Source of the DNA: a virus
Taxonomy: Duplodnaviria > Caudoviricetes
Reading direction: 5' to 3' (one strand)
Virus record (IMG/VR): IMGVR_UViG_3300020577_006105
Length of the DNA stretch: 64,000 nt
A program made the translations under genes and the position numbers. Below the pieces are notes generated by a model. The model was not told the DNA's origin. It saw only the letters and a program-made list of their open reading frames with translations, and made no database searches. This document shows positions 8,030 through 60,121 of the stretch, piece after piece (the stretch's first letter is position 1; every line of letters starts with the position of its first letter).

Positions 8030-8079
8030 TCGATAATATCACCACACACAATCCTTTTACAGTATTGTGTTTGTTCGCA

Positions 8080-26668: not shown

Positions 26669-27727
26669 ATGCCTGGATATGATATGAATGCATTTAGCGA
26701 GGATGTTCCTCTTGTTTACTATGGTTCACAAGATAGTCCTGGCGTTTATCTCAACTGGGATAGATACCCAGCACCATCTGCATCTATCGCCACCTATCAA
26801 ATCGAAAGAGCGACCAATTTCTATGGACCGTTTGAGATAGTAGATACAGTCGACTATCCAGTCAATGAATACATTGATGAAACAGGTCGACCAGAATATT
26901 ACTATCGCATAGTAGAGCTTGACGGTGACGGATTCACATTGAGAACAAGTCAGCCAATTATCGGAGATGAGCTGCTCGTCAAAGCATCATTGGCATACCA
27001 GGTCAGGGACTTGCTTCGTGTGCGCGTTTTAGATGAAGAAGTGCCATTCAATCGAAATCGCACAGTTGCATTTTCATCATTCCCGAACTGGAATTACTCT
27101 CCCAGACCTATGATTCGAATTTCTAGCCTGTCTAATGACGGCGCAAGAGACCCAATGGAGATTATGAGCGAAGACGAGGGTATCTTGCGTACATTTGGAA
27201 CCACAGACAATTATCCAAGCGGTCTGAAATACAAACTGGATTACCAAGGTCGCATCTATTTCATTGATGGCAATGACGAACCTCTAGCTGTCGATTACGC
27301 AGACACAGTGCTCGCAACATATTACGTCAGAATGTTCTCTGGTCGAGAAATGAATGACGCGCTGTATATGGCACTTCAACAAATCAACGCACTGCCTGGT
27401 GTCACTGCATACTCATCAGTTGGTGGTGCTCCATATTGGTACGATGCCGCGCTTGTTATTGGCGCAACATATTGGCTGATACGCTCGTTGATGCTAAGGC
27501 TAACCAACAGAGAAACCAGGTTACTAGTGCATGAACCTGGAGCAGACGACCCATGGTTTGACAATCTTAAAACGATTGCAGATATGTACAAAACCGACTG
27601 GGATTCAATCTTGAAGACGCTGCCTAAAGCCAGATACCCAAGCCTACGAACAGTCGTTACACCAGAGTACTACCTTCCAGGTGGTCGCTCAAGATTCTTC
27701 AGATACGTTTGGAAGGGAAATGCGTGA
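26669..27727 (+). CDS. Neck / head-tail adaptor-like protein with N-terminal FN3-like segment (352 aa)
   Basis: LNWDRYP..TYQIERATNFYGPFEIV..YIDETG..YYYRIV is FN3-like; C-terminal helical adaptor-like region (ALQQINALPG..AALVIGATYWLIRSL). Confidence 0.5.
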   Translation: MPGYDMNAFSEDVPLVYYGSQDSPGVYLNWDRYPAPSASIATYQIERATNFYGPFEIVDTVDYPVNEYIDETGRPEYYYRIVELDGDGFTLRTSQPIIGDELLVKASLAYQVRDLLRVRVLDEEVPFNRNRTVAFSSFPNWNYSPRPMIRISSLSNDGARDPMEIMSEDEGILRTFGTTDNYPSGLKYKLDYQGRIYFIDGNDEPLAVDYADTVLATYYVRMFSGREMNDALYMALQQINALPGVTAYSSVGGAPYWYDAALVIGATYWLIRSLMLRLTNRETRLLVHEPGADDPWFDNLKTIADMYKTDWDSILKTLPKARYPSLRTVVTPEYYLPGGRSRFFRYVWKGNA

Positions 27728-28684
27728 TTTGCCCAAGAAATCAAACCAATTTTTCCATCCCACATTAGAATATGTTTGGTCTGGATATTTAGGTGCATTA
27801 ACATCTGGATTGTTCGAGCACCACTTTCTCCATGCTAGACCGCTTTTGATACTTAATGACTGCGCTATTTTTTTACATTCATCATAGGAAATCCATGGTT
27901 CATAAGCCTTGACATTTAGGCAGTAGTCATCTTTGACTACAATATTGATATCGGGTATGTTGTTTTCAAAGAAGAGCACGAGTGCTTTATCTGCGTTTTG
28001 TATTTCATCGTATTTGATAATCAATAGCGGAATGTTCATTTTTTGACAATATTCATACTTTATCAAATCTTTCTTCTGTGTCTCTAGTAAGTATGCCAAA
28101 CCACCCCAATGTTCTACTGGAAAATAATGTTGCTGCCCGTGAAACTCTATTAACCCCAAGACAAAATCATTTTGAATAATTGCAAAGTCAAATTTGAGTA
28201 CCGCCTTATCTACACATTCACTTATTGAAAACTGATGCCTGTGTTCTATCTTTGAATCGCTTAAAATTCTAGATATAATCACTTCGCCATAAGAAGCACC
28301 TCTTCTATACCCTAAGAAATCAGACCAAGACACCCACCCTTTGCCAAGATATGCCAACCTCGGTTCACTTGGAATGTTTTTTGGTTTTTGACCCGACTTC
28401 ACAAATCTCTCCCAGTCAATTTTGGATTTCATATTCAGTGTTTGCGCAAATAACCTGCATTCTTCATAGTTTGTATAACTATGAGAAGAAATTGTATGTG
28501 TCTGCAGAAACTCGCCCCAGGAATCCCATTCATTATAAAATGTATCTGGTCTAGCAGGAAATTGCCCTGGACGACCATGCGCTTTCATATATGTGCTCAG
28601 TTGTCTTTTGGATTTGATTTTGTGGTCAACCACCCATTTTTGAGCCTCGTGATACGACCAATAGTTGCTCTTATTAACTTTCAT
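27689..28684 (-). CDS. Free-standing PD-(D/E)XK (Vsr/DUF559-like) endonuclease with integrase-repeat-like DNA-binding units
   Basis: SYGEVIIS..LKFDFAI..LIEFHGQQHY..DLIKYEYC..IPLLIIKY; three repeats of the type YEECR.FAQ.L..KS..DW...P..P...Y..GW.SW.DFLG; AT-rich and antisense to neighbours. Confidence 0.75.
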   Translation of the reverse strand: MKVNKSNYWSYHEAQKWVVDHKIKSKRQLSTYMKAHGRPGQFPARPDTFYNEWDSWGEFLQTHTISSHSYTNYEECRLFAQTLNMKSKIDWERFVKSGQKPKNIPSEPRLAYLGKGWVSWSDFLGYRRGASYGEVIISRILSDSKIEHRHQFSISECVDKAVLKFDFAIIQNDFVLGLIEFHGQQHYFPVEHWGGLAYLLETQKKDLIKYEYCQKMNIPLLIIKYDEIQNADKALVLFFENNIPDINIVVKDDYCLNVKAYEPWISYDECKKIAQSLSIKSGLAWRKWCSNNPDVNAPKYPDQTYSNVGWKNWFDFLGKSRISLPNVSEES

Positions 28685-28734: not shown

Positions 28735-30363
28735 TTGTTCGTGATTGCCAACAGTCGCGTAACTGTGGTGAGTCAGGTCACCAGCGAAGAGTCTGCATCC
28801 AAATCATTACCAGTTCTTGTAGCGGCCTGCAATGGTTTAGTTGATGAACTGATTATTGTGGTGCCGAAAGCCGATAAAATACTGACCGGCGTAGTTTGGG
28901 GACTGCTATTAGATGCATCATGTGATGCAAGGGTAGTTGCATTCAGCGACCACGCCAGTAAAATGTACATTCCTGCCATTTTCGGCATTCCAGAACTTGA
29001 AAATGCAGAAATCATTGTATGGTGCTCTGAAGACCTGTGTTATATTCATCCAGACGCTATATGTAATCTTGTTTCACATATAGCCAGCAGAAAAGAATTG
29101 TCATTCGCGTATCCGGCATGTGTCGGCACTGAGCGAACCACATATATGCAACAAGCGATGGGTTTCTTGCCGCCATGGTGCTTCAAGATGTGGGATGGTC
29201 TATACATAGACTACCTAGACATACGCAAAGAGCACCCCAATTTGCAAGAGGCGTGTCATCGTGCGTGGCTTTCCGAATTAAACCAGGGTCGAGAGTCGTT
29301 GCAACAATTTGGAGTGATTCGACTTGAGGAAAAAGACATTCCGGTAGAGTGCTGTTTTGCTTTTGACAACAGGAAAAGGCACGAACTATTCAAGCCTTCA
29401 GACCGAAGTGCCAAGGTTGCATTGATGCGACACATCACAAAGACTGAAATTTGTGGTCGCGCCTGGACTGCGTATTACGCATATCCCGAGCATGTTAAAC
29501 ACATGGACCGGACAGATATATGGACTCAATATCTCTCACACATTCAGCAATCATCTGACGCGGTGGCCAAAGTTGTCGAAGACGAGATTCAATATGGTTC
29601 GGAGTCCAGCTTGTTAAACTCTATGGTTGGTGAATGCGCCAAGAGCCCAAGTGCTGAAGATTTAAGGTTTTGCATATCAACACACATAAGCGACATGCAT
29701 CGCTCCGTGCCTGTGATTACAAACAGCCTGTTTAGGAATGGGGTCAAACCAGAGCAAATTCATATCGTCGCAGGCGGATTTGAAAGTCAACAAACACTTG
29801 AAATCAACCGCGTAAAAGTTCATTGCGTCACACACAACTCGTATGACCACACTGCGTTAATTGACGTAGTTGAAAATAATGTCCCTGGGTGGTGGTGGTT
29901 CGTGATGCACGCCACGTCCGAGGTCGGCCCAAGGTTTATCGAACGAATTCTGGAAAAAGGACTCGATTGCGAACATATCGCAGTTCTCGAGTATGGCTGG
30001 CTAAACATGGGATTGATGTCCCGCTCGTTCATTGAAAAGAACACAAACTACATTCTAAATCTCAAAAACTGTTCTAAGATGCAAGCTATTCTCACAGAGC
30101 AAATGTATTGGCGTATGGCAGAGACTAGAGACTATTACAACGAAGTGAGTCCAAAGATATATGCCGGGAGTAGAGAGGTGTACCAGGACGGCATTCAAAG
30201 GCAGATTCTATATCTTGATGGATGTGACTTGTACAAATATCAAGCGTATCACATTATTCAAGAACGCACACAGAGGCTGTTGTCAGAAAACATTGTGCAA
30301 TCTTCAGATTTGATACCAAAAACCAAGAGTAACCAGCAACAATATGAGACCAACAAAAAATGA
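28735..30363 (+). CDS. Two-domain glycosyltransferase-like protein (542 aa)
   Basis: N-domain parallels 56921..57772 (VWCSEDLCYIHPDAI vs VRLDDDICWMMPGAL); C-domain GT-A-like (FCISTH..HNSYDHTALI..WWFVMHATSEVG). Confidence 0.55.
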   Translation: MFVIANSRVTVVSQVTSEESASKSLPVLVAACNGLVDELIIVVPKADKILTGVVWGLLLDASCDARVVAFSDHASKMYIPAIFGIPELENAEIIVWCSEDLCYIHPDAICNLVSHIASRKELSFAYPACVGTERTTYMQQAMGFLPPWCFKMWDGLYIDYLDIRKEHPNLQEACHRAWLSELNQGRESLQQFGVIRLEEKDIPVECCFAFDNRKRHELFKPSDRSAKVALMRHITKTEICGRAWTAYYAYPEHVKHMDRTDIWTQYLSHIQQSSDAVAKVVEDEIQYGSESSLLNSMVGECAKSPSAEDLRFCISTHISDMHRSVPVITNSLFRNGVKPEQIHIVAGGFESQQTLEINRVKVHCVTHNSYDHTALIDVVENNVPGWWWFVMHATSEVGPRFIERILEKGLDCEHIAVLEYGWLNMGLMSRSFIEKNTNYILNLKNCSKMQAILTEQMYWRMAETRDYYNEVSPKIYAGSREVYQDGIQRQILYLDGCDLYKYQAYHIIQERTQRLLSENIVQSSDLIPKTKSNQQQYETNKK

Positions 30364-30695
30364 AAGACGAATCTCAAGCAATAGAAAATCTGGGGGATTT
30401 CCTCAAGCGGCTAGATTGGCAGGACTACGAATTTGTCCAGCAGCCAGAGCTACCGCATGGCGTGTCACCGCAAGCTAAAATCACCCCTGAAAATCAAGCT
30501 AAGCTGGAAGCCTATCGGTTACAGCGCGTAAAATGGCGCCAGTGTATGGAATCAATCACACCTGGCACGGTGCTGTTTTTGAAGACAGGCAAGTTCATAC
30601 TGGTTGGTCACGTGAACGAGAGTCTTACGTCTAAAGAGAACTACGAACCAGATTTTGAATACGAAGACATCTGTAAGATAGCCAAGTTGTGGTAA
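30360..30695 (+). CDS. Hypothetical protein (111 aa)
   Basis: ORF track; ATGA overlap with upstream gene. Confidence 0.6.
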   Translation: MKDESQAIENLGDFLKRLDWQDYEFVQQPELPHGVSPQAKITPENQAKLEAYRLQRVKWRQCMESITPGTVLFLKTGKFILVGHVNESLTSKENYEPDFEYEDICKIAKLW

Positions 30696-30704
30696 ACTGC
30701 ATGC

Positions 30705-31181
30705 ATGGAAATTCTGCAAAGACCAACGCACCAAGAGGTTTGCGACCTGGTTCAAGCCATTACTGGTTCATTTGAATCTATCTCGTGCGACCTCGATGCA
30801 AGTTTTGCCAACAAAATCACTGGCAAGACGAATTCAAGATTTGAGTCGCCTGTCATAATGGCGCTCCGTGTGTATCAAGATATTGTGGATGCATATTTCT
30901 GGTCTCATATGCTGGATTGCTCTGGTTGCGGTCGTGAAAATCGTGACCACGGAAATTTTTGGGGGCAATACTATGTATACTCCGAGATGGGTTGCACAAA
31001 GAAAAAGATTGACTCAGAATGGCCAGAAGGAACTCAAGATAAAGCGAAAGAGTTTCTAGACCACAGGAAGGATTACGAAGCCATTTTTCCACACATCTGC
31101 GAACTGTATGCATCTGGAATGTCATACGAAGAGGCCAGGGAAAGCGCAGAAAAAGCAGCCAAGACCCAAGTTAAGACGTGA
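30705..31181 (+). CDS. Hypothetical protein (158 aa)
   Basis: ORF track. Confidence 0.6.
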   Translation: MEILQRPTHQEVCDLVQAITGSFESISCDLDASFANKITGKTNSRFESPVIMALRVYQDIVDAYFWSHMLDCSGCGRENRDHGNFWGQYYVYSEMGCTKKKIDSEWPEGTQDKAKEFLDHRKDYEAIFPHICELYASGMSYEEARESAEKAAKTQVKT

Positions 31182-31227
31182 TTTTCGGGTTCAAACACGA
31201 CTTTTTTCGGATTTTTCTCGGAACCTC

Positions 31228-31256
31228 TTGACAAAAAACGAAGTCTGTTGTATAAT
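31228..31256 (+). promoter_or_regulatory. Consensus sigma70 promoter for the tRNA island
   Basis: TTGACA (31228-31233), 17 nt, TATAAT (31251-31256); 5' hairpin GCGATG-AAAA-CATCGC at 31267-31282. Confidence 0.9.
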
Positions 31257-31295
31257 ATGAAGGTGAGCGATGAAAACATCGCGAAAGGAATGAAC

Positions 31296-31409
31296 ATGCG
31301 ATTTAGCTTGAATAACCATAATGGAAGCACACGGTTGGCCTATCAGGCCAATACCGCCGTGCATAATTATCCCAATATGGTTCGGGCTAACTGGGGGTAC
31401 CAGGCTTAA
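31296..31409 (+). CDS. Attenuator leader peptide, Asn/His/Tyr-rich (37 aa): MRFSLNNHNGSTRLAYQANTAVHNYPNMVRANWGYQA
   Basis: SD GAAAGGA at 31283-31289; 12 of 37 codons are NAY (7 Asn, 2 His, 3 Tyr; 9 are NAU); 3' end overlaps the antiterminator. Confidence 0.8.
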   Translation: MRFSLNNHNGSTRLAYQANTAVHNYPNMVRANWGYQA

Positions 31410-35832: not shown

Positions 35833-37761
35833 ATGAGATTGTCGTCTCACAATGTAGAATTTGCCACACTTGGGTATGGGGAGATAGGACTTGGCGGCAA
35901 AATTGGATTCGCTGATTTGTACGCCAGTGTAGCCAATCGCCATTACCCAAATGCCATCGGTGCGCATGCACCAAGCAAATTAACGTTTGCATTGCCTCAA
36001 GGAATGCAAGGCTTTTCTACATATGTTGCCCTGAACGATACGGCAGAACCCGGCGCAACTGCTGATTTTCTCGTTTATGCAGATGACGAGCTTATAGCAG
36101 CAACTCACGCAGTAAGGGCAGGCGAGGCACCCAGACTACTTGAAGGCGAATTGTACGGTGCTAAAAAAGTACACTTGGTCATCAATACCCTGCACTGGCC
36201 AGGTTGTCACACTTTGTGGATTGACCCTTTGGTAACCAGGCAAGAAAAACCATTCTTTACTGGCGTTCTTGGCGAGATAGACGTGCCAATAGGTTCATCT
36301 ATAGAATACTGTGACACTTGCATTGCAATTATCGTCACAGACGGATACGAGACAATGGCAGAGGCCATGCTGGGTTCGCTATGGGACAACGGTTGTTGCA
36401 GAGACGCCTCGGTTTTGATTATCACAGACAGTGATAATACAGCGTGCCAACACCTTGCTTCAAAATTCAACGCGATAGTTAAGTACATCACTCGAATTCC
36501 AAAAGATACGTATATCATCAAGTCAATTGCGTATTCGGTTGCCAGAATGATTCGCGCAAACAACTATATTGTTCTGGACGTTGACATGATTGTCACTAAT
36601 AGCCTTAATCCCTTGCTTTCTTCGATTGGTGTGGTACCGCCCAGCCACATTCTAATATGTAAAGAACAAGAAGGGCAGTCACAAAGCACATTGCTAACGG
36701 GAATTGACACTTATGCTCATCCATATTTTGGAAAGTCAGGAGACCTTGCCAATCTTAAGGTCACGCCTCAAATGTCACAACATTGTCCTGTGTTTAATGG
36801 TGGTGTAATGGCGGGCCGGCGAGAGGCATTTTTGGGACTCGAGAGTGCAATGAGAGACCTAATGCCATTCTCTGGATACTGGGAAAAACAAGAAGTTTAC
36901 AACCAAGATAGCATCAAAGTCAAATGGCGCGAGCAGGGTGTGATGAACGCAAGCCTTGCCAGAACAGGCAAGTGGTCTGAACTAAGCGGTGTTTACAATT
37001 GCCAGTTAGCTGTATCGAATCATCCATTTGAGCTTATTCAAGGGGCACCATCTGCAATCATTGACAATCAGCAGGCCACTATCATACACTTTAATGGCGT
37101 AATCGGTCGCGCTCATTACAGCAATATCACTCACAACTATCGAGACGGAATCAAAAAGCCATTTGGAACCACAGGGCAAAACGGAACATCTGAAGCCACT
37201 GTACTTGGTGCGAAATTGTTCAGGGCATGCTATCGTCCAACGGCGTCTAAGGCGTTTCATAGCATAGACTCATTCTGGGATTATCAAGGGTTGTGGTATC
37301 TGCTTTGGGAATCAATATCCGAACACAAAAACCCACGTGTGCTGGACATTAACACGTTGTCAATGTGTACATCAGTGATTGCAATGCGTGCTACCGAATC
37401 GTGTATGGGACATGTGGAAATCATTACCAAATCACAGCCACCAGAATGGTTTATCAACATCGCAGGCAGCAGAATCAAAATTGGTGATGTTGAACTGCTT
37501 GTGAACCAAAGCCAGGATGACTCTAAGCTATATGACATCATATGTATCGACACATCATCCAATGCAAGGATGCTCATGAACTTGTTGAACATATCGAAGA
37601 GCATCCTAGAACCAGGTGGTTCATTATTGTTACTAGACATACAACATCCGGTCAACGACGTAAGCGTAATTTTGGACAAAATGAGAAGAGAGGGATGGAT
37701 AGACAAGTTGGTGTTTTCACATCCAAGTATTGCGCTATACAAATTGACCAGAAATGAATGA
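35833..37761 (+). CDS. NPCBM/NEW2 carbohydrate-binding + GT8-like glycosyltransferase + degenerate methyltransferase-fold fusion (642 aa)
   Basis: YPNAIGAHAPSKLTFAL..FSTYVALND..FLVYAD..GAKKVHLVI (NPCBM); YIVLDVDMIV..FNGGVMAG..EQGVMN..YN..IIHFNG (GT8); YDIICIDT..ILEPGGSLLLLD. Confidence 0.7.
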   Translation: MRLSSHNVEFATLGYGEIGLGGKIGFADLYASVANRHYPNAIGAHAPSKLTFALPQGMQGFSTYVALNDTAEPGATADFLVYADDELIAATHAVRAGEAPRLLEGELYGAKKVHLVINTLHWPGCHTLWIDPLVTRQEKPFFTGVLGEIDVPIGSSIEYCDTCIAIIVTDGYETMAEAMLGSLWDNGCCRDASVLIITDSDNTACQHLASKFNAIVKYITRIPKDTYIIKSIAYSVARMIRANNYIVLDVDMIVTNSLNPLLSSIGVVPPSHILICKEQEGQSQSTLLTGIDTYAHPYFGKSGDLANLKVTPQMSQHCPVFNGGVMAGRREAFLGLESAMRDLMPFSGYWEKQEVYNQDSIKVKWREQGVMNASLARTGKWSELSGVYNCQLAVSNHPFELIQGAPSAIIDNQQATIIHFNGVIGRAHYSNITHNYRDGIKKPFGTTGQNGTSEATVLGAKLFRACYRPTASKAFHSIDSFWDYQGLWYLLWESISEHKNPRVLDINTLSMCTSVIAMRATESCMGHVEIITKSQPPEWFINIAGSRIKIGDVELLVNQSQDDSKLYDIICIDTSSNARMLMNLLNISKSILEPGGSLLLLDIQHPVNDVSVILDKMRREGWIDKLVFSHPSIALYKLTRNE

Positions 37762-38641
37762 GCACAAGTACGGAATCTGTTTAGGCCCGTGGGGGGATAT
37801 CATATGTGCTATGGGGCATTTCTATCAACTCATGCCCAATAAAGAGTGTATCTATTATGGATACCTGTCTCCAGAATCCATTGTTTTAGACTTCTTGAAT
37901 TCTCAAGAGTACATTACCAAAGCGCATTACGTGTCGCCCGATTCTTACGAAAACTACAGGGCAAATAACACAATGATGTGGAGTCCAAACCCAGACACGC
38001 GCAGAGAGGGTATTCAAAAAGCACTTGCGCACTCTATATTTGACCCAGAGCTGGTGGCAGACACAAATCTCAACTATGGATTTTCTGGATATGATGCACC
38101 AGAAATACCTTTAGCACCGAGAATAAACGTACCAGAATACTGCAAAGTGTGGGCAGAGGATGTGGCATCATATCTACCAAGACCATTCTATTTGGTGCAA
38201 CCATTCAGCATCAATACAAATCAAGTCATTCACCACTGGCCTCATTGGAGTGAGTATCTTAGGTGGATGCTTCATGACCAAACCAAACACTATGTTACAT
38301 GTGGCGTTCATTGGGATGACTCTGTTGTGTCTAAGCTCAGCAATGCCACTCGATTGGTTGGTAAAACACCTACGGTAATGCATTTGTGGGCCCTGGCTTC
38401 GCTGGCAGACGGAGTGATTACCACAAGCAACTCATTGGCACACTATTGCGCAGCCAACAGTATTCGCACGATAGTTCTAGCGGCCGAAAGAAATAGTGAA
38501 CCAACTGAGTATTTTCACCACGTCATAAAGGGGAGCAATATCTTGTTCTTCAACAAATTCTCTAGCTACTTCAGGGTGTGTTATGAGACCAAGGAGTTTC
38601 TGAACATATGGCCTGATGTAGAAATCGGTACAAGTAATTAG
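37754..38641 (+). CDS. GT-B glycosyltransferase, GT9/heptosyltransferase-like
   Basis: GPWGDIICA; YLVQPFS..HHWP..W; RLVGKT..LWALASLADGVITTSNSLAHYCAANSIRTIVL. Confidence 0.7.
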   Translation: MNEHKYGICLGPWGDIICAMGHFYQLMPNKECIYYGYLSPESIVLDFLNSQEYITKAHYVSPDSYENYRANNTMMWSPNPDTRREGIQKALAHSIFDPELVADTNLNYGFSGYDAPEIPLAPRINVPEYCKVWAEDVASYLPRPFYLVQPFSINTNQVIHHWPHWSEYLRWMLHDQTKHYVTCGVHWDDSVVSKLSNATRLVGKTPTVMHLWALASLADGVITTSNSLAHYCAANSIRTIVLAAERNSEPTEYFHHVIKGSNILFFNKFSSYFRVCYETKEFLNIWPDVEIGTSN

Positions 38642-39898
38642 ATGACCACGACACACACATCTGAGTTTTTGCGTTCTGGCAAGACGCTGCAAAATCTGTA
38701 TCAGCGATACGACATACAACACTTCGTCAATCACGAATTGGGAGTTGTGGTGTTCAACTACAGACCCCTGAGTCCAAAATCTTCTCCGATTGTCAGAGAG
38801 TGCCGTGGTTTGATTTTGGAGCTCGATACATGGGACGTTGTTTGCAAACCAATAGGCGCATTTTTTGAACCCAGTGAATCTGGATATAAGGCAATTGCAG
38901 ACCAGTTTGATTGGTCTAGTGCTAAAGCAATGCACAAAATCGACGGCGCATTAGTGTGTATGTATCATTACAAAGGACAATGGCGGTGTTCAACTAGGTT
39001 TAGTGCCGATGGCAGCTCAATTGTGCGAAGTCCAAATGGTTCTGGCAGAACTGTTACATGGAGACAACTGGTTGAAGAAGCACTTATGAACAACGGCACA
39101 AGCTGGGCAGAGTTCACAAGCAAGCTCAATCCAGATGTGTCCTATGTTTTTGAACTAGTCACACCAGACAACAGGGTTGTGGTATTGTATTCGACATCAC
39201 ATTTATATCTTGTCGCAGCCGTCAACAGAAAAACACTCAAAGAAATTGACATCTTCAACATGAAATTTCACGGAGAGGTTGCTCCCTATAAAAAAGTACG
39301 CTCGCTGGCCCAGGTTTATGAACTGATTGAAGAACAGCCAGACGCTCATAAAAATGAAGGATATGTTGTTGTCGACAAAAACTTCAACAGGCTTAAAATC
39401 AGAAACCCAAGGTATTCAGAAGCCATGCGTATCTACTCTGTGGATGATGAAATGTCTGCACTCAGGGAACTCAGGATGCTAGATGTTGAGGGCTTTACCA
39501 TTGTCACAGACCCAGACCCAACGGACACTGGCACAGGTGGCGGCGGCTCTGGCGGCTCTGGTGGCTCTGGTGGCTCTGGTGAGACAGCAACAGTTACTGG
39601 CATTTCCGCAGTCGCCGATTCATATGTTGGTGCTATGGCGGCCCCGCCGACGCTTAGAAATGTTTTGAACCGAGTTCTTTACCTGGCAAGATTTATTAGT
39701 GAGGGTTATGAAAACGCTGTTGCTGCTGGCAAACCAGTTGAAGACACTGAATACTACGCCGTTTGGCCGCAGGCATTTGAGGGTCTTAAGAGTGGCCGAA
39801 GTGTCAGCGACGTGATGGACAGTAGCTCAGACCATGAACTTATGAGCGCATTACGCAAGTATGAACTAGAATTTGCAGGTAAGACAGTCATAGACTAA
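38642..39898 (+). CDS. RNA ligase, T4 Rnl1-like nucleotidyltransferase
   Basis: IVRECRGLIL..VVCKP..FF; motif I HKIDGAL; YVFELVTPDNRVVVLY; motif IV NEGYVVVD; motif V region RLKIRN; Gly/Ser linker before the C-terminal helical domain. Confidence 0.85.
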   Translation: MTTTHTSEFLRSGKTLQNLYQRYDIQHFVNHELGVVVFNYRPLSPKSSPIVRECRGLILELDTWDVVCKPIGAFFEPSESGYKAIADQFDWSSAKAMHKIDGALVCMYHYKGQWRCSTRFSADGSSIVRSPNGSGRTVTWRQLVEEALMNNGTSWAEFTSKLNPDVSYVFELVTPDNRVVVLYSTSHLYLVAAVNRKTLKEIDIFNMKFHGEVAPYKKVRSLAQVYELIEEQPDAHKNEGYVVVDKNFNRLKIRNPRYSEAMRIYSVDDEMSALRELRMLDVEGFTIVTDPDPTDTGTGGGGSGGSGGSGGSGETATVTGISAVADSYVGAMAAPPTLRNVLNRVLYLARFISEGYENAVAAGKPVEDTEYYAVWPQAFEGLKSGRSVSDVMDSSSDHELMSALRKYELEFAGKTVID

Positions 39899-50690: not shown

Positions 50691-52051
50691 TGTCTGTTCA
50701 ATCAATCTATAGTAGTCTCGGAATGCTTGGGTTTCACGAGGGGTTTGTAGACCTCTTGGCTATTGTGCGCAACGAACCAAGCGAACCGCTATATGCAATT
50801 GACATAGTAGATGAGGTCGTACCGCGCACCATTCTCGCAGCCAGTTCGTTTCGATTAAACGTAGACCAGGCACCAAAGGTCACCGAGAAGTCCGCTGGAG
50901 AATCAGTAGACCCAAGCAACTTTATGGTGCCGCCGCTGACCATTTCTGCGACACTCGATATGCCACTACAAAGTCCAATTCAGGGATGGGTCGACCCGGC
51001 TTTTGCGGACTTGTATCACATGACCAGGCTTTCGTATGCGGGCACTCCAACCGTTGCATTAACCAGATGTCGTCAAACCATGGCACCCTCTGCAACTGAG
51101 TTGTTAGTAGATAACGCTGCTGATTTTGTTAGATTGTCAACACCATTCACTGTTAGTATTATTGACAATGGGATTACGAGTTCAGCAACTGTAACAAGCG
51201 TCAACAAACGCCTTGGTAAATTCACGTTTTCTGGAGCAATTGGAAGGACTACGACATCTGAGACACAGATATTTGCGCCACTTCGCGCTGCAACTGATAT
51301 ATTTCACGAACGGGCCTTCTCTCTTGTCTCACTACGAGAGGGATTGCTGACAGGATGTCTTGTAAAAAGCATAGAGCTTTCTTTTAAGCCAGGCCAGCCA
51401 ATCAAGGTTTCATCCGAAATCAATGCATGCAGACTTGACAGATATCATCAAATGGCAATTCGAAATGAATCAGCGGCAATTGTTGCGGCCTACGCCGCTC
51501 AACCACCTGCACGTATGGTTGGTCACACTGCTGTAGTGATTGAGTCAATTGCTTCTGACTCATGGTCTTTTGGTATGGATGGCGTTGTTGACAGCCCGCT
51601 GTTTAGAGGATTTTCTGGAATTAACCTGTTGCCAACCAGTATACAAGAATTCACATTCAAAATCGAACATAATATCATACCAATACATTCTATGCATGCA
51701 GTTGGAATCGAACCTGAGCGAGCAGAATACGACAATTCGGCAACTCGAGAGATGCTAAACGCATTTCCGTTTGCACTTGCCGTAGAAAGTCGCATAGTGA
51801 ATGGAACGATTACATACAAAGCACCAATAGAACCATGGGCACTTGCTGAGCGATTATCAGGGCCAAATGGAATTGGACAAAATGGGCTAAGGATTTCAGC
51901 AGACACTTTCAGACTTGAGGTGCCTCATGTGGTTTGGGCTCCCTCGAGTGGCACGGGTCAGTCTAAAGAAGCGCAAACCAGACAGGTTCAGTGGACTATG
52001 GTCACTGATGTGTATGAAGACCTTCCAGCCATGACATACATTACAAGCTGA
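50690..52051 (+). CDS. Tail tube-like protein 1
   Basis: GCLVKSIELSFKPGQPIKVSSEI..IQEFTFKIEHNI..RIVNGTIT; start moved to ATG 50690 (TAATG overlap). Confidence 0.55.
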   Translation: MSVQSIYSSLGMLGFHEGFVDLLAIVRNEPSEPLYAIDIVDEVVPRTILAASSFRLNVDQAPKVTEKSAGESVDPSNFMVPPLTISATLDMPLQSPIQGWVDPAFADLYHMTRLSYAGTPTVALTRCRQTMAPSATELLVDNAADFVRLSTPFTVSIIDNGITSSATVTSVNKRLGKFTFSGAIGRTTTSETQIFAPLRAATDIFHERAFSLVSLREGLLTGCLVKSIELSFKPGQPIKVSSEINACRLDRYHQMAIRNESAAIVAAYAAQPPARMVGHTAVVIESIASDSWSFGMDGVVDSPLFRGFSGINLLPTSIQEFTFKIEHNIIPIHSMHAVGIEPERAEYDNSATREMLNAFPFALAVESRIVNGTITYKAPIEPWALAERLSGPNGIGQNGLRISADTFRLEVPHVVWAPSSGTGQSKEAQTRQVQWTMVTDVYEDLPAMTYITS

Positions 52052-52725
52052 TGAAAATAGTCGATGTTGTTATTCTGAGCTATACGAAAAACGAACGATT
52101 CTATGCAATGACGCGCCACTGCATAGAATCGTTGCATTCTTCGGAAAACGATTGGGGTTTTAGGGTGCATTTAGTTGAAACTGCACCAGAACTTGGTGGT
52201 ATGACATACAATGATATTGTGCATCGTGTAATTCAACCAAATTTGCCGTTCAATTACAACCAGTATCTGAACATGGCTTTGCCAGAATGCACAAGCGAAT
52301 ATGTCATCATTATGAACAATGATGTTTTATGTCATAATGGCTGGTTTTCTGAGATTGTCGACAAGATGAAAGAGCACAATCTAGATTCCGCGTCTCCAAA
52401 ATGCCCAATATGGGAAGCACACAGACCTTATGATAATGGAATATTGCCCGGTTTTGAATCTGGTATCCATTTTTGCGGATGGTGTCTGGTTATGAAACAA
52501 GACACATTGAAGCATATCATGCCACTTGATGAGGCGTTCAGTTTTTGGTTTCAGGATAACGATTTGGCTCAATACCTTAGATGCACCAAGAAGAAACATG
52601 CGCTTGTCACATCTTCACTTGTAACACATCTTGAGTCACAGTCTCATGAACTCCTAGACCCAAAAGACAAAATTAACAAAACATATGGATTACGGCAAGT
52701 GTTTGCCGATAAGTGGGGCATGTAA
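52051..52725 (+). CDS. Glycosyltransferase family 2
   Basis: VDVVILSY..FNYNQYLNMAL..YVIIMNNDV..GWCLVM..LDEAFSFWFQDNDL..VTHLESQS. Confidence 0.85.
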   Translation: MKIVDVVILSYTKNERFYAMTRHCIESLHSSENDWGFRVHLVETAPELGGMTYNDIVHRVIQPNLPFNYNQYLNMALPECTSEYVIIMNNDVLCHNGWFSEIVDKMKEHNLDSASPKCPIWEAHRPYDNGILPGFESGIHFCGWCLVMKQDTLKHIMPLDEAFSFWFQDNDLAQYLRCTKKKHALVTSSLVTHLESQSHELLDPKDKINKTYGLRQVFADKWGM

Positions 52726-53546
52726 TGAATTCAGAGAAAATCGGTATCGCAATCACAACCAGAAACAGACCAGAGGTTCTCTCGGTCTGTCTTAGACATT
52801 TCGCTGTGTTCAAACCCGGACTTGATTATTCGTTTTTTGTACTTGATGACAATAGTGACGAAGATATCGCCAACATGAATGAGCAATCATGTGTAGAGCA
52901 TGGGTTTTCAATGAGCTATGTCTACGCTAGTGAAAGAATGGGTATTGCCAAAGCCAAAAATCAATGCCTGGAACGACTTGGTGATTGTGACTATTGTTTC
53001 CTGTTTGATGATGACTGCTTTCCCAAACAGACTGGATGGGACGAACTTTATGTCAACTGCTATAAGCACAGTGGCTGCCATCATCTGCTCTATAACGCAC
53101 ACATTGGCCCCTATGCACCTGTTGGCAAAGCATTCGGTGTTGAAGAGTACAATGCTGAGCTCGGCGTGCTGATGTTTATGACAAGGCATTGTCTTGACGT
53201 TATAGGCGGATTTGACGAACGTTACGGCATTTATGGCTACGAACACATAGAATACACTAGACGCGCCCAGGAAGCCATTCTGACCAACAAACTAGGCCGC
53301 TCCTGCGTGCCTGTCGGCGCAAGCAACTATATTTACGCCTTCGACCTTGATTGGCAAATGGGAAGAGTCCCACCACCACTGAAAAGTTTACCACATGAGT
53401 TTCAGAGTAGCTTGGTGGAAGAACCCTGGGAAGCATATCGAATTCATGCACGCAAGGTCAATGGGATTATCAACGAAGAGGTCTCTAGACGAGAACGTCA
53501 GCTACACGTTCCAATTACTGGTCAAAACGCAATGGATTTTTCTTGA
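52725..53546 (+). CDS. Glycosyltransferase family 2
   Basis: IGIAITTRNR..VLDDNS..GIAKAKN..FLFDDD..IGGFDERYGIYGYEH; likely start MNSEK at 52725. Confidence 0.85.
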   Translation: MNSEKIGIAITTRNRPEVLSVCLRHFAVFKPGLDYSFFVLDDNSDEDIANMNEQSCVEHGFSMSYVYASERMGIAKAKNQCLERLGDCDYCFLFDDDCFPKQTGWDELYVNCYKHSGCHHLLYNAHIGPYAPVGKAFGVEEYNAELGVLMFMTRHCLDVIGGFDERYGIYGYEHIEYTRRAQEAILTNKLGRSCVPVGASNYIYAFDLDWQMGRVPPPLKSLPHEFQSSLVEEPWEAYRIHARKVNGIINEEVSRRERQLHVPITGQNAMDFS

Positions 53547-57773: not shown

Positions 57774-58547
57774 CTACAGTTTATACTGCGGTAGTTTTAC
57801 ATACAGGTCGTCGTTATTGCTGTCAAACAACTTGCGATTTATGCTCACGATGTCGCCTGGTGTGTCAGCATGAGATGTTCGCACATGTTCAAAATCAATA
57901 ATGCCAATCGAGGGTTGTTGTTTGAGACTTTTGTATTCGTAATCAAGCGTGAAGATTTTCCCAATGGCGGCAATTGGGGTTAAGTATGCACCGTAATCCT
58001 GGTTCATGCCAGACAAAAACGCCCTTCTTCCATAAGACAGATGCTCAAAACCAAACATATGGTACTTTTCGTCAAATCCACCAATCTTCTCCAGAAGTTG
58101 CTTGCTGAAAAACATACAGCACCCCATACCCCACTCGCTAATGTACATTCCGGCTCGTTCCGACCTTTGGTCCGGAAACCAAGGAGTATAAGTCAGGTGA
58201 TGCACATTGTTGTGGTTCATGGTATGAATATAGGACTCAACCCAGAATGCCTCATTAGGAAAACTGTCGTCATCAAACAGGAAGACAACATCGTTATTTG
58301 ACATCATTGATAAGCCAAAGTTTTTGTTGGCGGCAACGCCAATTCTTGTTTGATGGTAGTGATAGTTTATGCCCCAATGTTCACATGTTAATTTGTTTTC
58401 TGTTGCACAATCAGTCGCACTGTTGTCATCACACACCAAGATGTCAACTGTATGTTCGGTTGGGAAATACGCTATAAAATGCGCCAGGCACATCTTCAAA
58501 TGCGCCTGGCGATTTCTGGTTGATATAGCTATACCAATGTTAGACAT
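57774..58547 (-). CDS. Glycosyltransferase family 2 (paralog of 52725..53546)
   Basis: IGIAISTRNR..VCDDNS..GVAANKN..FLFDDD..IGGFDEKYHMFGFEH. Confidence 0.85.
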   Translation of the reverse strand: MSNIGIAISTRNRQAHLKMCLAHFIAYFPTEHTVDILVCDDNSATDCATENKLTCEHWGINYHYHQTRIGVAANKNFGLSMMSNNDVVFLFDDDSFPNEAFWVESYIHTMNHNNVHHLTYTPWFPDQRSERAGMYISEWGMGCCMFFSKQLLEKIGGFDEKYHMFGFEHLSYGRRAFLSGMNQDYGAYLTPIAAIGKIFTLDYEYKSLKQQPSIGIIDFEHVRTSHADTPGDIVSINRKLFDSNNDDLYVKLPQYKL

Positions 58548-60121
58548 CAGCGAATGATTTGCTTGTAGACGTCAAAAGTCTTTTTGGCGATATGCTTCCA
58601 GTTAGTTGCTTTTAAGAACCTCACTCGGCTGTATACCTGAGAGTTTTTGACGTCGTTGTCCTTAAAGATGTTGTCAATCGCGTTATACATTGCATCATCG
58701 TCAATGCACTTTGTAGCAACATCGTCAAGGTCATCAAACAAGTGTACAGAACTTACAACGAGTGGTGTCTCTGTGCCGGCGACCACCCTGGCTATACCAG
58801 ATGTTGCACGCACCTCGTGGTCAGGGTGGCTTTGATATGGCAATACGCACACACGAGTTGTTCTGATAAATGACAACAATACCTCTTTGGACACAAACCC
58901 ACGGTTTACCGTTACATTTGATGAAAGCCCAAGTGCATCTGCGGTTTCAATGATTTGTGCATATAGCGCATCATGTTCCTTCATTGTGTGTGGGTTTTCT
59001 GAGCCCTGAATGATGTAATGCACATCAGGGTATTTCTTTTTCAGTCTGGCCACAATATGAAGCATCCTTACATGACCTTTGTATCCAAACATGAACCCTG
59101 GGTGAAATATAGTGTGCTTTGTGTGCCATGTGTTCCACATACTCGGCAACAGTTCTGGCGCATCTTGTGTACCAGCAAGAACCTCTGTGCCATGTGGTAT
59201 TGTGTGTATTTTGCTTGGCTGAAGTCCTTTCTTTACAAGACAGTCCCTTCCGGCCTCTGTGTGAACAATGATGTTTGGTGAAGACACTTCTGTTACAACC
59301 TTATCCTGGTGCTCATAAACACTATGGAACGTGGTGAGCACCGGAATTTTACGACCCTTTAGCCAGGTTACCAAAGATGTGTACATGTAAGCCCTTGCAA
59401 AGAACCCATACTCATGACCAATATGCACGACATGGGGCTGATATTCGAGCAATTCGTGCATAAGTTTGGATTTTGGATGCTCGTGTCTGCTCCAGCAGCG
59501 CAACACCCACTCAGGGTCTCGGTCGAGTCCTTGGTTTTTGTCTGTATCGGCGTACTCTGCGAATACCTTAACATCGGCGTACTCTCTCAGATATGGAACA
59601 AGTTCCTCGTTGTATGTGGCGATTCCACACGGTGTGCCCCACACACTGACATATGCCACTCGAAGTTTTTCGTTTTCACCAACACGGGGCTTATTGACCT
59701 TGTGTGGTTTTTTGGTACACCAGAAATATGGCATTGCTATGATGTTCAAAAGCATAACTAAAATCGAAAGCCATGAGCATCCATGCGCTGGGCATCCACA
59801 ATGGGGTGCATGACCACAATGTGGATGCCAACCACAATGCGGCGGCCAGCATCCGCAATACTCGCTGTCATATGGGTCTATGTGACACACTTTGTGCAAT
59901 GAGTCAATGATGCTTCTGAGCAAGAACTCTACATAAGCACACATAGCACAACCAATCCTATCAAGTGTCTTTCCGGCATATCCGAAGCACAGTCCAATGT
60001 ACGCCAATACGAGTAGAGGGATACCAACGACGAAAAAGAACACCGAAAGCATTACACACAGAATGCCCGATGATATTTTCTTGATAAGCGATTTTGTTGC
60101 TAGTGGTTTATGTTCTTGCAT
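58547..60121 (-). CDS. Glycosyltransferase family 4 with N-terminal membrane and Cys/His-rich extension
   Basis: CGIATYNEEL..VHIGHEYG..TTFHSV..IIVHT..IPHG..GFMFGYKG..VLPY..SG..PLVVS. Confidence 0.85.
   Translation of the reverse strand: MQEHKPLATKSLIKKISSGILCVMLSVFFFVVGIPLLVLAYIGLCFGYAGKTLDRIGCAMCAYVEFLLRSIIDSLHKVCHIDPYDSEYCGCWPPHCGWHPHCGHAPHCGCPAHGCSWLSILVMLLNIIAMPYFWCTKKPHKVNKPRVGENEKLRVAYVSVWGTPCGIATYNEELVPYLREYADVKVFAEYADTDKNQGLDRDPEWVLRCWSRHEHPKSKLMHELLEYQPHVVHIGHEYGFFARAYMYTSLVTWLKGRKIPVLTTFHSVYEHQDKVVTEVSSPNIIVHTEAGRDCLVKKGLQPSKIHTIPHGTEVLAGTQDAPELLPSMWNTWHTKHTIFHPGFMFGYKGHVRMLHIVARLKKKYPDVHYIIQGSENPHTMKEHDALYAQIIETADALGLSSNVTVNRGFVSKEVLLSFIRTTRVCVLPYQSHPDHEVRATSGIARVVAGTETPLVVSSVHLFDDLDDVATKCIDDDAMYNAIDNIFKDNDVKNSQVYSRVRFLKATNWKHIAKKTFDVYKQIIR

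What the first reader, a model, noticed from the sequence alone, without database searches (positions are those of the whole stretch)
31228..39898. Integrated tRNA rescue island: sense, replace, bind, religate
Seen within about 8.7 kb, all on the + strand: NAY attenuator, six GUN tRNAs, a tRNA-like RNA, two Y RNAs, Ro60 and an Rnl1-like ligase (two glycosyltransferase genes intervene). Established: T4 Rnl1 with Pnkp repairs tRNA-Lys cut by PrrC, and phage tRNAs can offset tRNA-cleaving defences. Inference: a counter-defence against a host nuclease that targets queuosine-family tRNAs. No Pnkp-like end-healing gene is visible in this window, so the ligase link is unproven.
Basis: inference. Interest (0 to 1): 0.75.

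Follow-up and report, generated by a model that had tools for sequence, protein, structure and literature searches.

The report
Codon-sensing phage tRNA cassette beside Ro60
A huge phage carries a compact cassette in which its only Asn, His and Tyr tRNA genes sit behind a leader-peptide switch and three tiny ORFs full of the matching codons, next to two Y RNAs and Ro60. The nearby RNA ligase belongs to an older neighbouring gene block and is not part of the cassette.

Summary
That includes a 12/12 sigma-70 promoter, an Asn/His/Tyr-rich leader ORF with a terminator, six GUN-anticodon tRNAs in three pairs and a sporadic tRNA-like element. It also includes two Y RNAs, Ro60, two probable glycosyltransferases and an Rnl1-fold ligase with an intact active site.

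Five syntenic relatives (Ro60 56-93% identical) keep the leader, a covarying antiterminator and mini-ORFs whose codons match the tRNAs that follow. One relative lacks the His mini-ORF. In a complete 479-kb relative with about 60 tRNAs, Asn, His and Tyr tRNAs occur only in this cassette.

The single "island" does not hold. More distant relatives keep glycosyltransferase-glycosyltransferase-ligase-head/tail genes with no tRNAs and no Ro60 within 10 kb.

The complete relative has no Pnkp, TGT or Thg1. Its RtcB, 2H phosphoesterase and CCA-adding enzyme lie far away, and tRNA-Asp is elsewhere.

Best reading: a demand-sensing tRNA supply module with Ro60/Y RNA quality control. Counter-defence is possible but untested. 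First-stage readers had noted the attenuator, mini-ORFs and Y RNAs separately on this DNA.

The parts
31228..31256 (+). sigma-70 consensus promoter (TTGACA, 17 nt, TATAAT)
   Evidence: 12/12 match. Conserved in L001, L015, L016, L017 and L019.
31296..31409 (+). leader ORF (37 codons; an alternative start lies at 31290) rich in Asn/His/Tyr codons
   Evidence: 12/36 N/H/Y against an 11.2% background, P = 3.5e-4. Orthologues have 13/36, 10/35, 7/35, 6/37 and 10/29. The region is 96% identical to L001, against about 84% for the flanking genes.
31383..31392 (+). antiterminator strand inside the 3' part of the leader ORF; it pairs with the terminator's 5' arm (31432-31444)
   Evidence: With the terminator's 3' arm removed, this pairing forms in all six genomes, although the sequences differ. 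Duplex energy beats shuffles: 27, 27, 11, 1, 3 and 4 of 300 shuffles reach it. In the full-length fold the same strand pairs with 31303-31311.
31431..31468 (+). intrinsic terminator of the leader (14-bp stem plus T run)
   Evidence: Present in all six genomes.
31491..31514 (+). mini-ORF 1 (MEDNDNN-stop), placed before the Asn tRNA pair
   Evidence: Orthologues are also Asn-rich in L001, L015, L016, L017 and L019.
31562..31637 (+). tRNA Asn-1 (GUU; U73, CCA; atypical T loop; two mismatches in the anticodon stem)
   Evidence: ARAGORN at relaxed threshold. In L001 the anticodon stem is fully paired. Orthologues are found at default settings.
31691..32239 (+). HNH homing-endonuclease-like ORF inserted between Asn-1 and Asn-2
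   Evidence: PHROG HNH families, 2e-21. Absent from L001, where the two tRNAs are 3 nt apart.
32242..32315 (+). tRNA Asn-2 (GUU; G73, CCA)
   Evidence: 63 bits. The anticodon stem is fully compensatory between the window and L001.
32341..32490 (+). mini-ORF 2 (starts MDDHHH...); it reads through His-1
   Evidence: 100% identical in L001. Kept in L015, L017 and L019, absent in L016.
32376..32453 (+). tRNA His-1 (GUG; encoded G-1, C73, CCA; C54 in the T loop)
   Evidence: Read by eye. The L017 orthologue is found by ARAGORN at default settings. The MFE z-score alone is not significant.
32476..32551 (+). tRNA His-2 (GUG; no encoded G-1; 3' end CC, then T)
   Evidence: (64 bits).
32569..32863 (+). 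tRNA-like element with a large internal insert (acceptor, T arm and ACCA are kept)
   Evidence: Present in L015 with one compensatory stem change. Absent in L001, L016, L017 and L019.
32891..32956 (+). mini-ORF 3 (starts MESDYNY...); it runs into Tyr-1
   Evidence: The D-Y-x-Y motif is kept in all five relatives.
32918..33004 (+). tRNA Tyr-1 (GUA)
   Evidence: Absent in L001.
33019..33105 (+). tRNA Tyr-2 (GUA)
   Evidence: 100% identical in L001.
33166..33690 (+). endonuclease VII / HNH-like ORF, a mobile insertion
   Evidence: PHROG 1035, 1e-22. Absent in L001.
33711..33719 (+). extended -10 promoter-like element (TGcTATAAT) in front of the Y RNAs
   Evidence: Read. Conserved in L001. L019 has a full consensus promoter at the same place.
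33876..33942 (+). Y RNA 1: a simple stem-loop with a GGG-A-CGA / UUGCCC Ro-binding helix
   Evidence: 10 of 20 pairs show compensatory changes across 7 sequences.
33947..34082 (+). Y RNA 2 (YrlA-like, with a tRNA-like module) carrying a CGGU-A-CGA / UUGACCG helix
   Evidence: Rfam YrlA, 41 bits, E 5.5e-7, below the gathering score. 10 of 27 pairs are compensatory and the core helix is invariant in 8 sequences.
34089..34119 (+). strong hairpin after the Y RNAs, a possible terminator
   Evidence: Inverted repeat. Conserved in L001.
34159..35781 (+). Ro60 (TROVE + vWA)
35833..37761 (+). NPCBM-domain protein with a weak GT8-like region. It belongs to the older neighbouring block, not the cassette.
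   Evidence: Kept next to the ligase in relatives that lack the cassette.
37754..38641 (+). GT9-like protein (neighbouring block)
   Evidence: Atlas features, 0.97-0.98 to viral GT9 clusters. No Pfam, PDB or NCBIfam match.
38642..39898 (+). Rnl1-fold RNA ligase with its own helical C-terminal domain (neighbouring block)
   Evidence: K99-x-D-G, R55, E171, E239-G and K252 are invariant in 49 homologues.

Best explanation
The region holds two units of different ancestry.

Unit 1 (about 30360-35781) is an RNA cassette inserted in one subclade of a huge-phage family. It contains:
- a host-type promoter;
- a classical ribosome-mediated attenuator whose leader peptide is rich in Asn, His and Tyr codons;
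- the phage's only Asn, His and Tyr tRNA genes, arranged as three pairs, with the first tRNA of each pair preceded by a mini-ORF packed with its own codons plus Asp codons;
- two Y RNAs with their own promoter;
- Ro60.

Proposed mechanism for the attenuator:
- When NAY codons are decoded slowly, the ribosome stalls early in the leader.
- Stalling melts the pairing that hides the antiterminator strand.
- The antiterminator forms and RNA polymerase reads into the tRNA genes.
- When decoding is fast, the ribosome reaches the stop codon and covers the antiterminator strand, so the terminator forms.

The result is demand-driven feedback on tRNA supply. The mini-ORFs would add a second sensor for each tRNA species, probably through competition between translation and folding or processing of the abutting tRNA.

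Ro60 with its Y RNAs most likely handles misfolded or damaged tRNA-like RNAs, as Ro60 RNPs do in bacteria.

Unit 2 (35833 onward) is an older conserved block that leads into head-tail genes: NPCBM protein, GT9-like protein and an active Rnl1-fold ligase. The ligase may act on RNA, but it is a neighbour of the cassette and not a component of it.

Shown: the anatomy, its conservation, the covariation and the independent assortment of the ligase. Inferred: stalling, read-through, and the roles of the mini-ORFs and of Ro60.
For: - Promoter and terminator.
- Leader composition in six genomes. The enrichment is significant in four of them.
- Antiterminator: pairing is kept in all six genomes with different sequences and beats shuffles. 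A 1:2-type pairing appears in full-length folds. A compensatory change inside the leader hairpin alters two amino acids.
- Mini-ORFs: only 10 of 2269 ATGs in the window are followed by at least 4/6 NAY codons. Three of these sit just 5' of the three tRNA groups, each with the cognate codons.
- Mini-ORF conservation: mini-ORFs 1 and 3 are kept in all five relatives and mini-ORF 2 in four of them, with the neighbouring codons varying.
- No such mini-ORFs precede the other ~55 tRNAs of the complete relative.
- Asn, His and Tyr tRNAs occur only in the cassette in that genome.
- Y RNA covariation. Ro60 domains.
- Ro60 lies next to tRNAs of other identities in four unrelated phage contigs.
- Independent assortment of the ligase block.
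- Ligase active site conserved.
Against: - There are no expression or ribosome data.
- Leader enrichment is weak in L016 and L017 (P = 0.09 and 0.23).
- NAY codons are spread along the leader. A stall at the late ones would cover the antiterminator strand and favour termination.
- Ribosomes paused on mini-ORF 3 would occlude the tRNA-Tyr 5' end. The sign of that control is therefore unclear.
- L016 lacks mini-ORF 2.
- The six genomes are syntenic kin, so co-occurrence of tRNAs and Ro60 within them is inheritance and not independent evidence.
- The host and its ribosome-binding-site rules are unknown.
Confidence: 0.6

Rival explanations
1. This is one integrated counter-defence island: a host anticodon nuclease that cuts queuosine-family tRNAs is sensed by the attenuator, the tRNAs replace the losses, Ro60/Y RNA binds the fragments, and the Rnl1-like ligase reseals them.
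For: - All parts are adjacent and co-directional in six genomes.
- Ro60 through the ligase have short or overlapping gene junctions.
- The ligase active site is conserved.
- Mini-ORFs contain Asp codons as well, so all four NAY boxes are represented.
- Precedents: the Salmonella rsr-yrlBA-rtcBA operon, which responds to damaged tRNAs (PMC7790460); jumbo-phage tRNA, ligase and TROVE repertoires (PMC7824862); phage tRNA-Tyr defeating a tRNA-Tyr-degrading retron effector (PMC11555353).
- A Streptomyces phage places an Rnl1-type ligase and Pnk inside its tRNA array.
Against: - The ligase block exists without tRNAs or Ro60 in more distant relatives.
- The complete relative has no Pnkp (kinase or HAD), TGT or Thg1.
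- Its RtcB, 2H phosphoesterase and CCA-adding enzyme lie 130-350 kb away.
- tRNA-Asp is not in the cassette.
- The tRNAs keep U33-G34-U35.
- No colicin E5-type domain was found in the candidate host MAG. That search is uninformative.
Confidence: 0.15
2. Plain codon supply. The tRNAs are simply three members of a complete phage tRNA set. The promoter-to-terminator unit is an independent small RNA or micropeptide gene, and the mini-ORFs are not translated.
For: - The relative encodes tRNAs for all 20 amino acids, grouped loosely by amino acid, with Gln also standing apart.
- A strong terminator directly after a strong promoter is the anatomy of an sRNA gene.
- Leader enrichment is weak in two relatives.
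Against: - The antiterminator covaries with the terminator arm in six genomes.
- Cognate-codon mini-ORFs are conserved while their neighbouring codons drift, and they are absent before the other tRNAs.
- No promoter-like site lies between the terminator and the first tRNA.
Confidence: 0.12
3. The ligase serves virion assembly or another late function, as T4 gp63 (Rnl1) also promotes tail-fibre attachment. It has no link to tRNA.
For: - It is invariably followed within 2 kb by a Mu gp36-like head-tail adaptor and giant PA14 proteins, and preceded by sugar-related genes. This holds with or without the RNA cassette.
- PHROG 562 is annotated as RNA ligase and tail fibre attachment catalyst.
Against: - The catalytic Lys, Arg and Glu residues are invariant in 49 homologues, so enzymatic nucleotidyl transfer is under selection.
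- The nearest folds are tRNA-repair and tRNA-splicing ligases.
Confidence: 0.13

Closest known systems
Leader-peptide (ribosome-mediated) transcription attenuators of the his, trp, phe, thr, leu and ilv operons and of pheST
   Same: It has a short SD-led ORF enriched in regulatory codons, an intrinsic terminator, and an antiterminator strand inside the 3' end of the ORF. An upstream segment can sequester that strand.
   Different: The controlled genes are tRNA genes that read the regulatory codons, not amino-acid biosynthesis or synthetase genes. Three amino acids are sensed together. It is phage-encoded, and a second tier of cognate mini-ORFs abuts individual tRNAs. I found no description of this in the searched literature. 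That is absence from a limited library, not proof of novelty.
Salmonella rsr-yrlBA-rtcBA RNA repair operon (Ro60, two Y RNAs, RtcB ligase, RtcA)
   Same: It also has Ro60 with two adjacent Y RNAs, one carrying a tRNA-like module, and an RNA ligase gene nearby. That operon responds to damaged tRNAs (PMC7790460, PMC4201824).
   Different: Here the ligase is Rnl1-fold, not RtcB, and it belongs to a separate, older gene block. There is no RtcR or RtcA. The sensor is a translational attenuator and not a CARF-domain activator. The phage's RtcB lies about 350 kb away in the relative.
T4 Rnl1 with Pnkp, repairing tRNA-Lys cut by PrrC
   Same: It has the Rnl1 nucleotidyltransferase fold and motifs: KxDG, ECRG, FE(L/F)V, EGYV and a K-x-(K/R) motif V.
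   Different: About 15% structural-alignment identity. The C-terminal domain has no sequence match to that of T4. There is no Pnkp anywhere in the complete relative genome. The T4-type equivalog model scores 38.6 bits against a cut-off of 242.
Phage tRNAs that offset tRNA-depleting defences (for example T5 tRNA-Tyr versus a retron effector, PMC11555353) and jumbo-phage RNA repair repertoires (PMC7824862)
   Same: It is a large phage with its own tRNAs, RNA ligases, a TROVE protein and a CCA-adding enzyme.
   Different: No defence system is identified here. What is new is regulation of the tRNA genes by their own codons.

Membership tests
Ro60 / TROVE RNA-binding proteins | TROVE (HEAT-repeat ring) domain followed by a vWA domain | tested here: met
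   PF05731 at 2e-33 and PF25045 at 8e-57. PHROG 850 at 1e-77.
Bacterial Y RNAs (YrlA type) | Terminal helix with the conserved Ro-binding sequence and a bulged nucleotide | tested here: met
   CGGU-A-CGA / UUGACCG is invariant in 8 sequences. GGG-A-CGA / UUGCCC occurs in the second class, with a GGA/UCC covariant in L017.
Bacterial Y RNAs (YrlA type) | tRNA-like module (T arm, D arm, acceptor-like stem) in at least one Y RNA per locus | tested here: met
   The Rfam YrlA alignment matches the T arm, acceptor-like stem and D arm. Covariation is seen in these stems.
Bacterial Y RNAs (YrlA type) | Score at or above the Rfam RF02553 gathering threshold | tested here: not met
   41.2 bits against 69. 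It is a divergent member by score. Binding to Ro60 is not testable here.
Bacterial Y RNAs (YrlA type) | Encoded next to the Ro60 gene | tested here: met
   It lies 77-280 nt upstream of Ro60 in the window and in relatives.
Rnl1 family of ATP-dependent RNA ligases | Covalent nucleotidyltransferase motifs: motif I KxDG lysine and motifs III/IIIa, IV and V | tested here: met
   The alignment to T4 Rnl1 keeps ECRG, K99-I-D-G, FELV, EGYV and K252-I-R. These are invariant in 49 homologues.
Rnl1 family of ATP-dependent RNA ligases | Overall fold closest to T4 Rnl1 / Trl1 ligase domain | tested here: met
   Foldseek top hits are 2c5u, 9do4 and 5tt6 (E 6e-14 to 1e-12), then fungal Trl1. The model has pLDDT 80.6.
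Rnl1 family of ATP-dependent RNA ligases | T4-type equivalog (TIGR02308 cut-off) and a T4-like C-terminal tRNA-specificity domain | tested here: not met
   38.6 bits against a cut-off of 242. Sequence alignment stops at residue 260. The C-terminal domain is helical but has no sequence match.
T4-type tRNA repair pathway (Rnl1 + Pnkp) | A polynucleotide kinase-phosphatase partner in the genome | tested here: not met
   In the complete 479-kb relative there is no HAD_PNKP. The only AAA_33 hit is a clamp loader. The Streptomyces phage Pnk finds nothing. A 2H phosphoesterase and RtcB exist elsewhere.
Ribosome-mediated transcription attenuator | Short translatable leader ORF enriched in the regulatory codons | tested here: met
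   An SD-like AAGGA lies 7 nt before ATG 31296. N/H/Y counts are 12/36, and enrichment is significant in 4 of 6 genomes. Translation itself is not testable here.
Ribosome-mediated transcription attenuator | Intrinsic terminator between the leader and the regulated genes | tested here: met
   A 14-bp stem plus T run, present in all six genomes.
Ribosome-mediated transcription attenuator | Mutually exclusive antiterminator that a ribosome at the stop codon would mask | tested here: met
   The terminator's 5' arm pairs with a strand 12-25 nt upstream of the stop codon in six genomes. The sequences covary.
Ribosome-mediated transcription attenuator | Read-through increases when the cognate charged tRNA is limiting | not testable with these tools
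   This needs a reporter or term-seq experiment.
Queuosine-family (GUN) tRNA set | All four families (Asn, Asp, His, Tyr) present together, or a tgt/que link | tested here: not met
   Asp(GUC) lies in a distant array. There is no TGT in the relative. The only QueC-model hit is a 25-bit PP-loop match in a 634-aa ORF.

The most novel reading that the evidence does not exclude
A phage carries a two-tier, translation-coupled gauge of decoding capacity. A shared Asn/His/Tyr leader attenuator opens transcription, and a cognate mini-ORF in front of each tRNA pair tunes maturation of that species. The phage would then make replacement GUN tRNAs exactly when a host nuclease, or queuosine-linked stress, depletes them. 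Ro60/Y RNA and the neighbouring ligase would clear or reseal the debris. This would be the first attenuator known to control tRNA genes by their own codons, and a built-in damage sensor for counter-defence.
Probability: 0.2. Interest if true: 0.9.

Novelty: new variant of a known kind. Interest (0 to 1): 0.62.

Why it matters
Phage tRNA genes are usually treated as constitutive codon supplements or as decoys against tRNA-cutting defences. Here the sequence suggests that a phage measures how well three codon families are being read and adjusts its own tRNA output. It does so with the textbook attenuation logic, turned onto the tRNAs themselves.

That gives a directly testable cis-regulatory device of about 250 nt, plus three roughly 30-nt mini-ORFs. 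It also gives a marker for finding similar sensors in other phages.

The work separates what belongs together (attenuator, tRNAs, Y RNAs, Ro60) from what is only adjacent (the ligase). This matters for anyone inferring RNA-repair islands from gene neighbourhoods.

Tried and rejected
- Megablast of the island against 50,697 phage records gave no match.
- No whole genome is held for the window. The 479-kb relative was used instead.
- Cognate-codon mini-ORFs or the shared header motif were sought before the other tRNA groups of the relative. None were found.
- Single-sequence folding of Asn-1, His-1 and the tRNA-like element gave z-scores of -0.96, -0.41 and -0.05. The 319-nt stretch gave +1.8. 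Folding energy alone does not support these RNAs, and the evidence for Asn-1 and His-1 is comparative.
- The idea that the 295-aa protein before the ligase is the missing end-healing enzyme is rejected. It looks like a viral GT9 glycosyltransferase.
- The AAA_33 hit as a Pnk is rejected. It is a DNA polymerase III clamp-loader subunit.
- The colicin E5 domain search in the candidate host MAG and in the relative found nothing, and the controls found nothing either, so it is uninformative.
- The Atlas search for the 111-aa protein at the cassette's left edge gave no usable hit.
- The records behind L015, L017, L019, L022 and L023 are not held, so they could not be searched whole. 'No Ro60' for L022 and L023 therefore means none within 10 kb of the ligase.

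Full report
**What is there**

The window is huge-phage DNA. A relative, L001, lies in a 478,840-bp IMG/VR contig that has terminal repeats and is rated complete. It is collinear with window 21441-45779 at about 85% nucleotide identity.

On the + strand between 31228 and 39898 I find, in order:
- a 12/12 sigma-70 promoter and a 14-bp intrinsic terminator 175 nt downstream;
- between them, a 37-codon ORF with 12 Asn/His/Tyr codons;
- six tRNAs with GUN anticodons in three pairs;
- two HNH/EndoVII-type ORFs;
- a roughly 295-nt tRNA-like element;
- two Y RNAs;
- Ro60;
- an NPCBM protein with a weak GT8 match;
- a GT9-like protein;
- an Rnl1-fold ligase.

Two of the six tRNAs are non-canonical in the window. 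The 'glycosyltransferase' label rests on weak evidence.

**The attenuator**

The leader region is 96% identical between the window and L001, while the flanking genes are about 84% identical. One hairpin inside the ORF changes by a compensatory pair that alters two amino acids. Selection is therefore acting on RNA structure.

I retrieved four further syntenic genomes through Ro60 homologues: L015, L016, L017 and L019, with Ro60 89, 78, 71 and 56% identical. All six genomes have the promoter, an SD-led leader ORF and a terminator.

Against the window's own N+H+Y codon frequency of 11.2%, leader enrichment gives P = 3.5e-4, 8e-5, 4e-3, 0.09, 0.23 and 8e-4. It is clear in four genomes and weak in two.

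When the terminator's 3' arm is removed, its 5' arm pairs in every genome with a strand 12-25 nt upstream of the leader stop codon. The sequences differ between lineages but complementarity is kept. The duplex is reached by 27, 27, 11, 1, 3 and 4 of 300 shuffles. In full-length folds the same strand is held by a segment near the start of the ORF, next to the first cluster of Asn/His codons.

This is the four-segment logic of classical attenuators. What it gates is unusual: no promoter-like site lies between the terminator and the first tRNA.

**The mini-ORFs**

While aligning the window with L001, I saw a shared purine-rich header ending in ATGGA three times. It lies just 5' of each tRNA pair, and each header opens a mini-ORF:
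- MEDNDNN-stop before the Asn pair;
- MDDHHH... before the His pair;
- MESDYNY... before the Tyr pair.

I saw this before reading any earlier notes.

Only 10 of 2269 ATGs in the window are followed by at least 4/6 NAY codons, and three of these are the mini-ORFs. The cognate residues persist in relatives while neighbouring codons drift. Mini-ORF 1 appears as MEENDNN, MEEGNNI, MEDDNNNN and MEDDNKK. Mini-ORF 2 keeps its DHHH run, and mini-ORF 3 keeps D-Y-x-Y. L016 lacks the His mini-ORF.

Nothing comparable precedes the other tRNA groups of the complete relative.

Mini-ORFs 2 and 3 run into the tRNA body, and the Tyr codons lie 0-6 nt from the tRNA 5' end. Translation and tRNA folding must therefore compete. 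I cannot tell the direction of control from sequence.

**The tRNAs**

In the complete relative, Rfam finds 62 tRNA matches. ARAGORN assigns them to all 20 amino acids plus CUA and UCA suppressor-like tRNAs. Asn, His and Tyr occur only in this cassette, and Asp(GUC) lies among Thr tRNAs in a distant array.

The Asn-2 anticodon stem is fully compensatory between the window and L001. The Asn-1 stem is fully paired in L001 but has two mismatches in the window.

His-1 has an encoded G-1, C73 and CCA. His-2 lacks G-1 and ends CC-T. All six tRNAs keep U33-G34-U35.

The relative lacks the two endonuclease ORFs, Tyr-1 and the tRNA-like element. The tRNA-like element recurs only in L015.

**Ro60 and the Y RNAs**

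Both Y RNAs have the Ro-binding helix with a bulged A. It is invariant in the YrlA-like class and shows a GGA/UCC covariant in the simple class. Compensatory changes occur in 10/27 and 10/20 pairs.

The Rfam YrlA score is below threshold (41 against 69 bits). I therefore file Y RNA 2 as a divergent YrlA-type RNA.

The Y RNAs have their own promoter-like element and a trailing hairpin.

A cellular-looking contig, L018, encodes a Ro60 that is 68% identical, preceded by three tandem Y RNAs. Its neighbours are PhoX and pyruvate kinase, and it has no tRNAs or ligase.

Y RNAs beside Ro60 in bacteria and phages are known (PMC4201824). TROVE proteins in jumbo-phage RNA-repair repertoires are also known (PMC7824862).

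In four phage contigs outside this family (L002, L003, L020, L021), Ro60 again lies within about 2 kb of tRNAs. Those tRNAs have other identities, and there is no ligase within 10 kb.

**The ligase**

Sequence and fold place it with T4 Rnl1 and fungal Trl1. The catalytic residues are invariant in 49 homologues. The C-terminal domain is helical and has no sequence match to that of T4.

The decisive result comes from more distant homologues at 46, 42 and 34% identity. They keep the order up542 - NPCBM protein - (GT9-like) - ligase - small proteins - Mu gp36-like head-tail adaptor - giant PA14 protein. They have no tRNA gene and no Ro60 within 10 kb. In L022 the up542 homologue overlaps the NPCBM gene directly.

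The tRNA/Y RNA/Ro60 cassette is therefore an insertion into a pre-existing block that already held the ligase.

The complete relative has no Pnkp, TGT or Thg1. Its RtcB is at 385 kb, a 2H phosphoesterase is at 201 kb, and a CCA-adding-type domain is at 163 kb.

By contrast, a Streptomyces phage places an Rnl1-type ligase and Pnk inside its tRNA array. This locus is not built that way.

**Verdict**

The cassette is real, conserved and unusual. Its most interesting feature is the control of tRNA genes by their own codons, at two levels.

The four-step 'sense, replace, bind, religate' island is only partly supported:
- 'Sense' has good comparative support.
- 'Replace' is plausible but cannot be told apart from ordinary supply.
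- 'Bind' is supported by homology.
- 'Religate' is not linked to the cassette by evolution or by a healing partner.

The counter-defence trigger is untested. I rate the locus as a new variant of known kinds: leader-peptide attenuation and phage tRNA/Ro60 modules.

Noticed in passing
L016 (GCA_018268375.1, contig of 1,363,254 bp; G002:C5): A contig binned as an Armatimonadetes MAG carries the whole syntenic phage region. It has phage-style dense tRNA arrays at about 95, 387, 432-457 and 490-520 kb, followed by sparse bacterial-style tRNAs beyond 560 kb. This is either an integrated or chimerically assembled huge phage. It is also a lead to the host phylum.
   Followed up: partly
L004:9329-9404 and L006:69-143 (relative genome G001): The complete relative encodes suppressor-like tRNAs with CUA and UCA anticodons. 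This hints at stop-codon reassignment or read-through at some stage. The window's ORFs are open under table 11.
   Followed up: no
window 27689-28684 (-), 31691-32239 (+), 33166-33690 (+): Three ORFs are absent from the 85%-identical relative. Two are HNH/EndoVII-type endonucleases, and one has a weak DUF2726 match. They look like recent homing-endonuclease-type insertions, two of them inside the tRNA array.
   Followed up: partly
L019:15032-16753: The ligase orthologue is 573 aa. It carries an insertion of about 130 residues in the linker before the C-terminal domain, starting with Cys and ending His-Asn, which is intein-like. Not examined further.
   Followed up: no
L018:5916-6389 and 6447-8063: A Ro60 in a cellular-looking context (PhoX, pyruvate kinase, PEP-CTERM) is 68% identical to the window's Ro60. 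That is closer than the Ro60 of the same phage family's member L019 (56%). It is preceded by three tandem Y RNAs. This suggests exchange of the Ro60/Y RNA unit between phage and host lineages.
   Followed up: partly
window 33763-33805 and 33846-33857: Upstream of Y RNA 1, a stem changes from TATAGC/GCTATA to TATGGC/GCCATA in L001. A small hairpin also covaries in L016 and L017. This may be a further structured RNA or a 5' extension of the Y RNA precursor.
   Followed up: no
L019:9712-9788: In L019 a canonical tRNA-Met(CAU), behind a consensus promoter, occupies the place of the YrlA-like Y RNA. Only the simple Y RNA follows it.
   Followed up: no
window 31513-31553: Between the mini-ORF 1 stop codon and Asn-1, a 5-bp tetraloop hairpin can alternatively pair with a segment that overlaps the stop codon. 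Similar alternatives can be drawn in L016 and L017. I did not test this formally.
   Followed up: partly
window 52051-53546 and 57774-60121: Four more glycosyltransferase genes (GT2, GT2, GT2, GT4/GT1) lie among large structural-looking genes. The phage invests heavily in glycosylation, which may explain the sugar-related genes beside the ligase.
   Followed up: no
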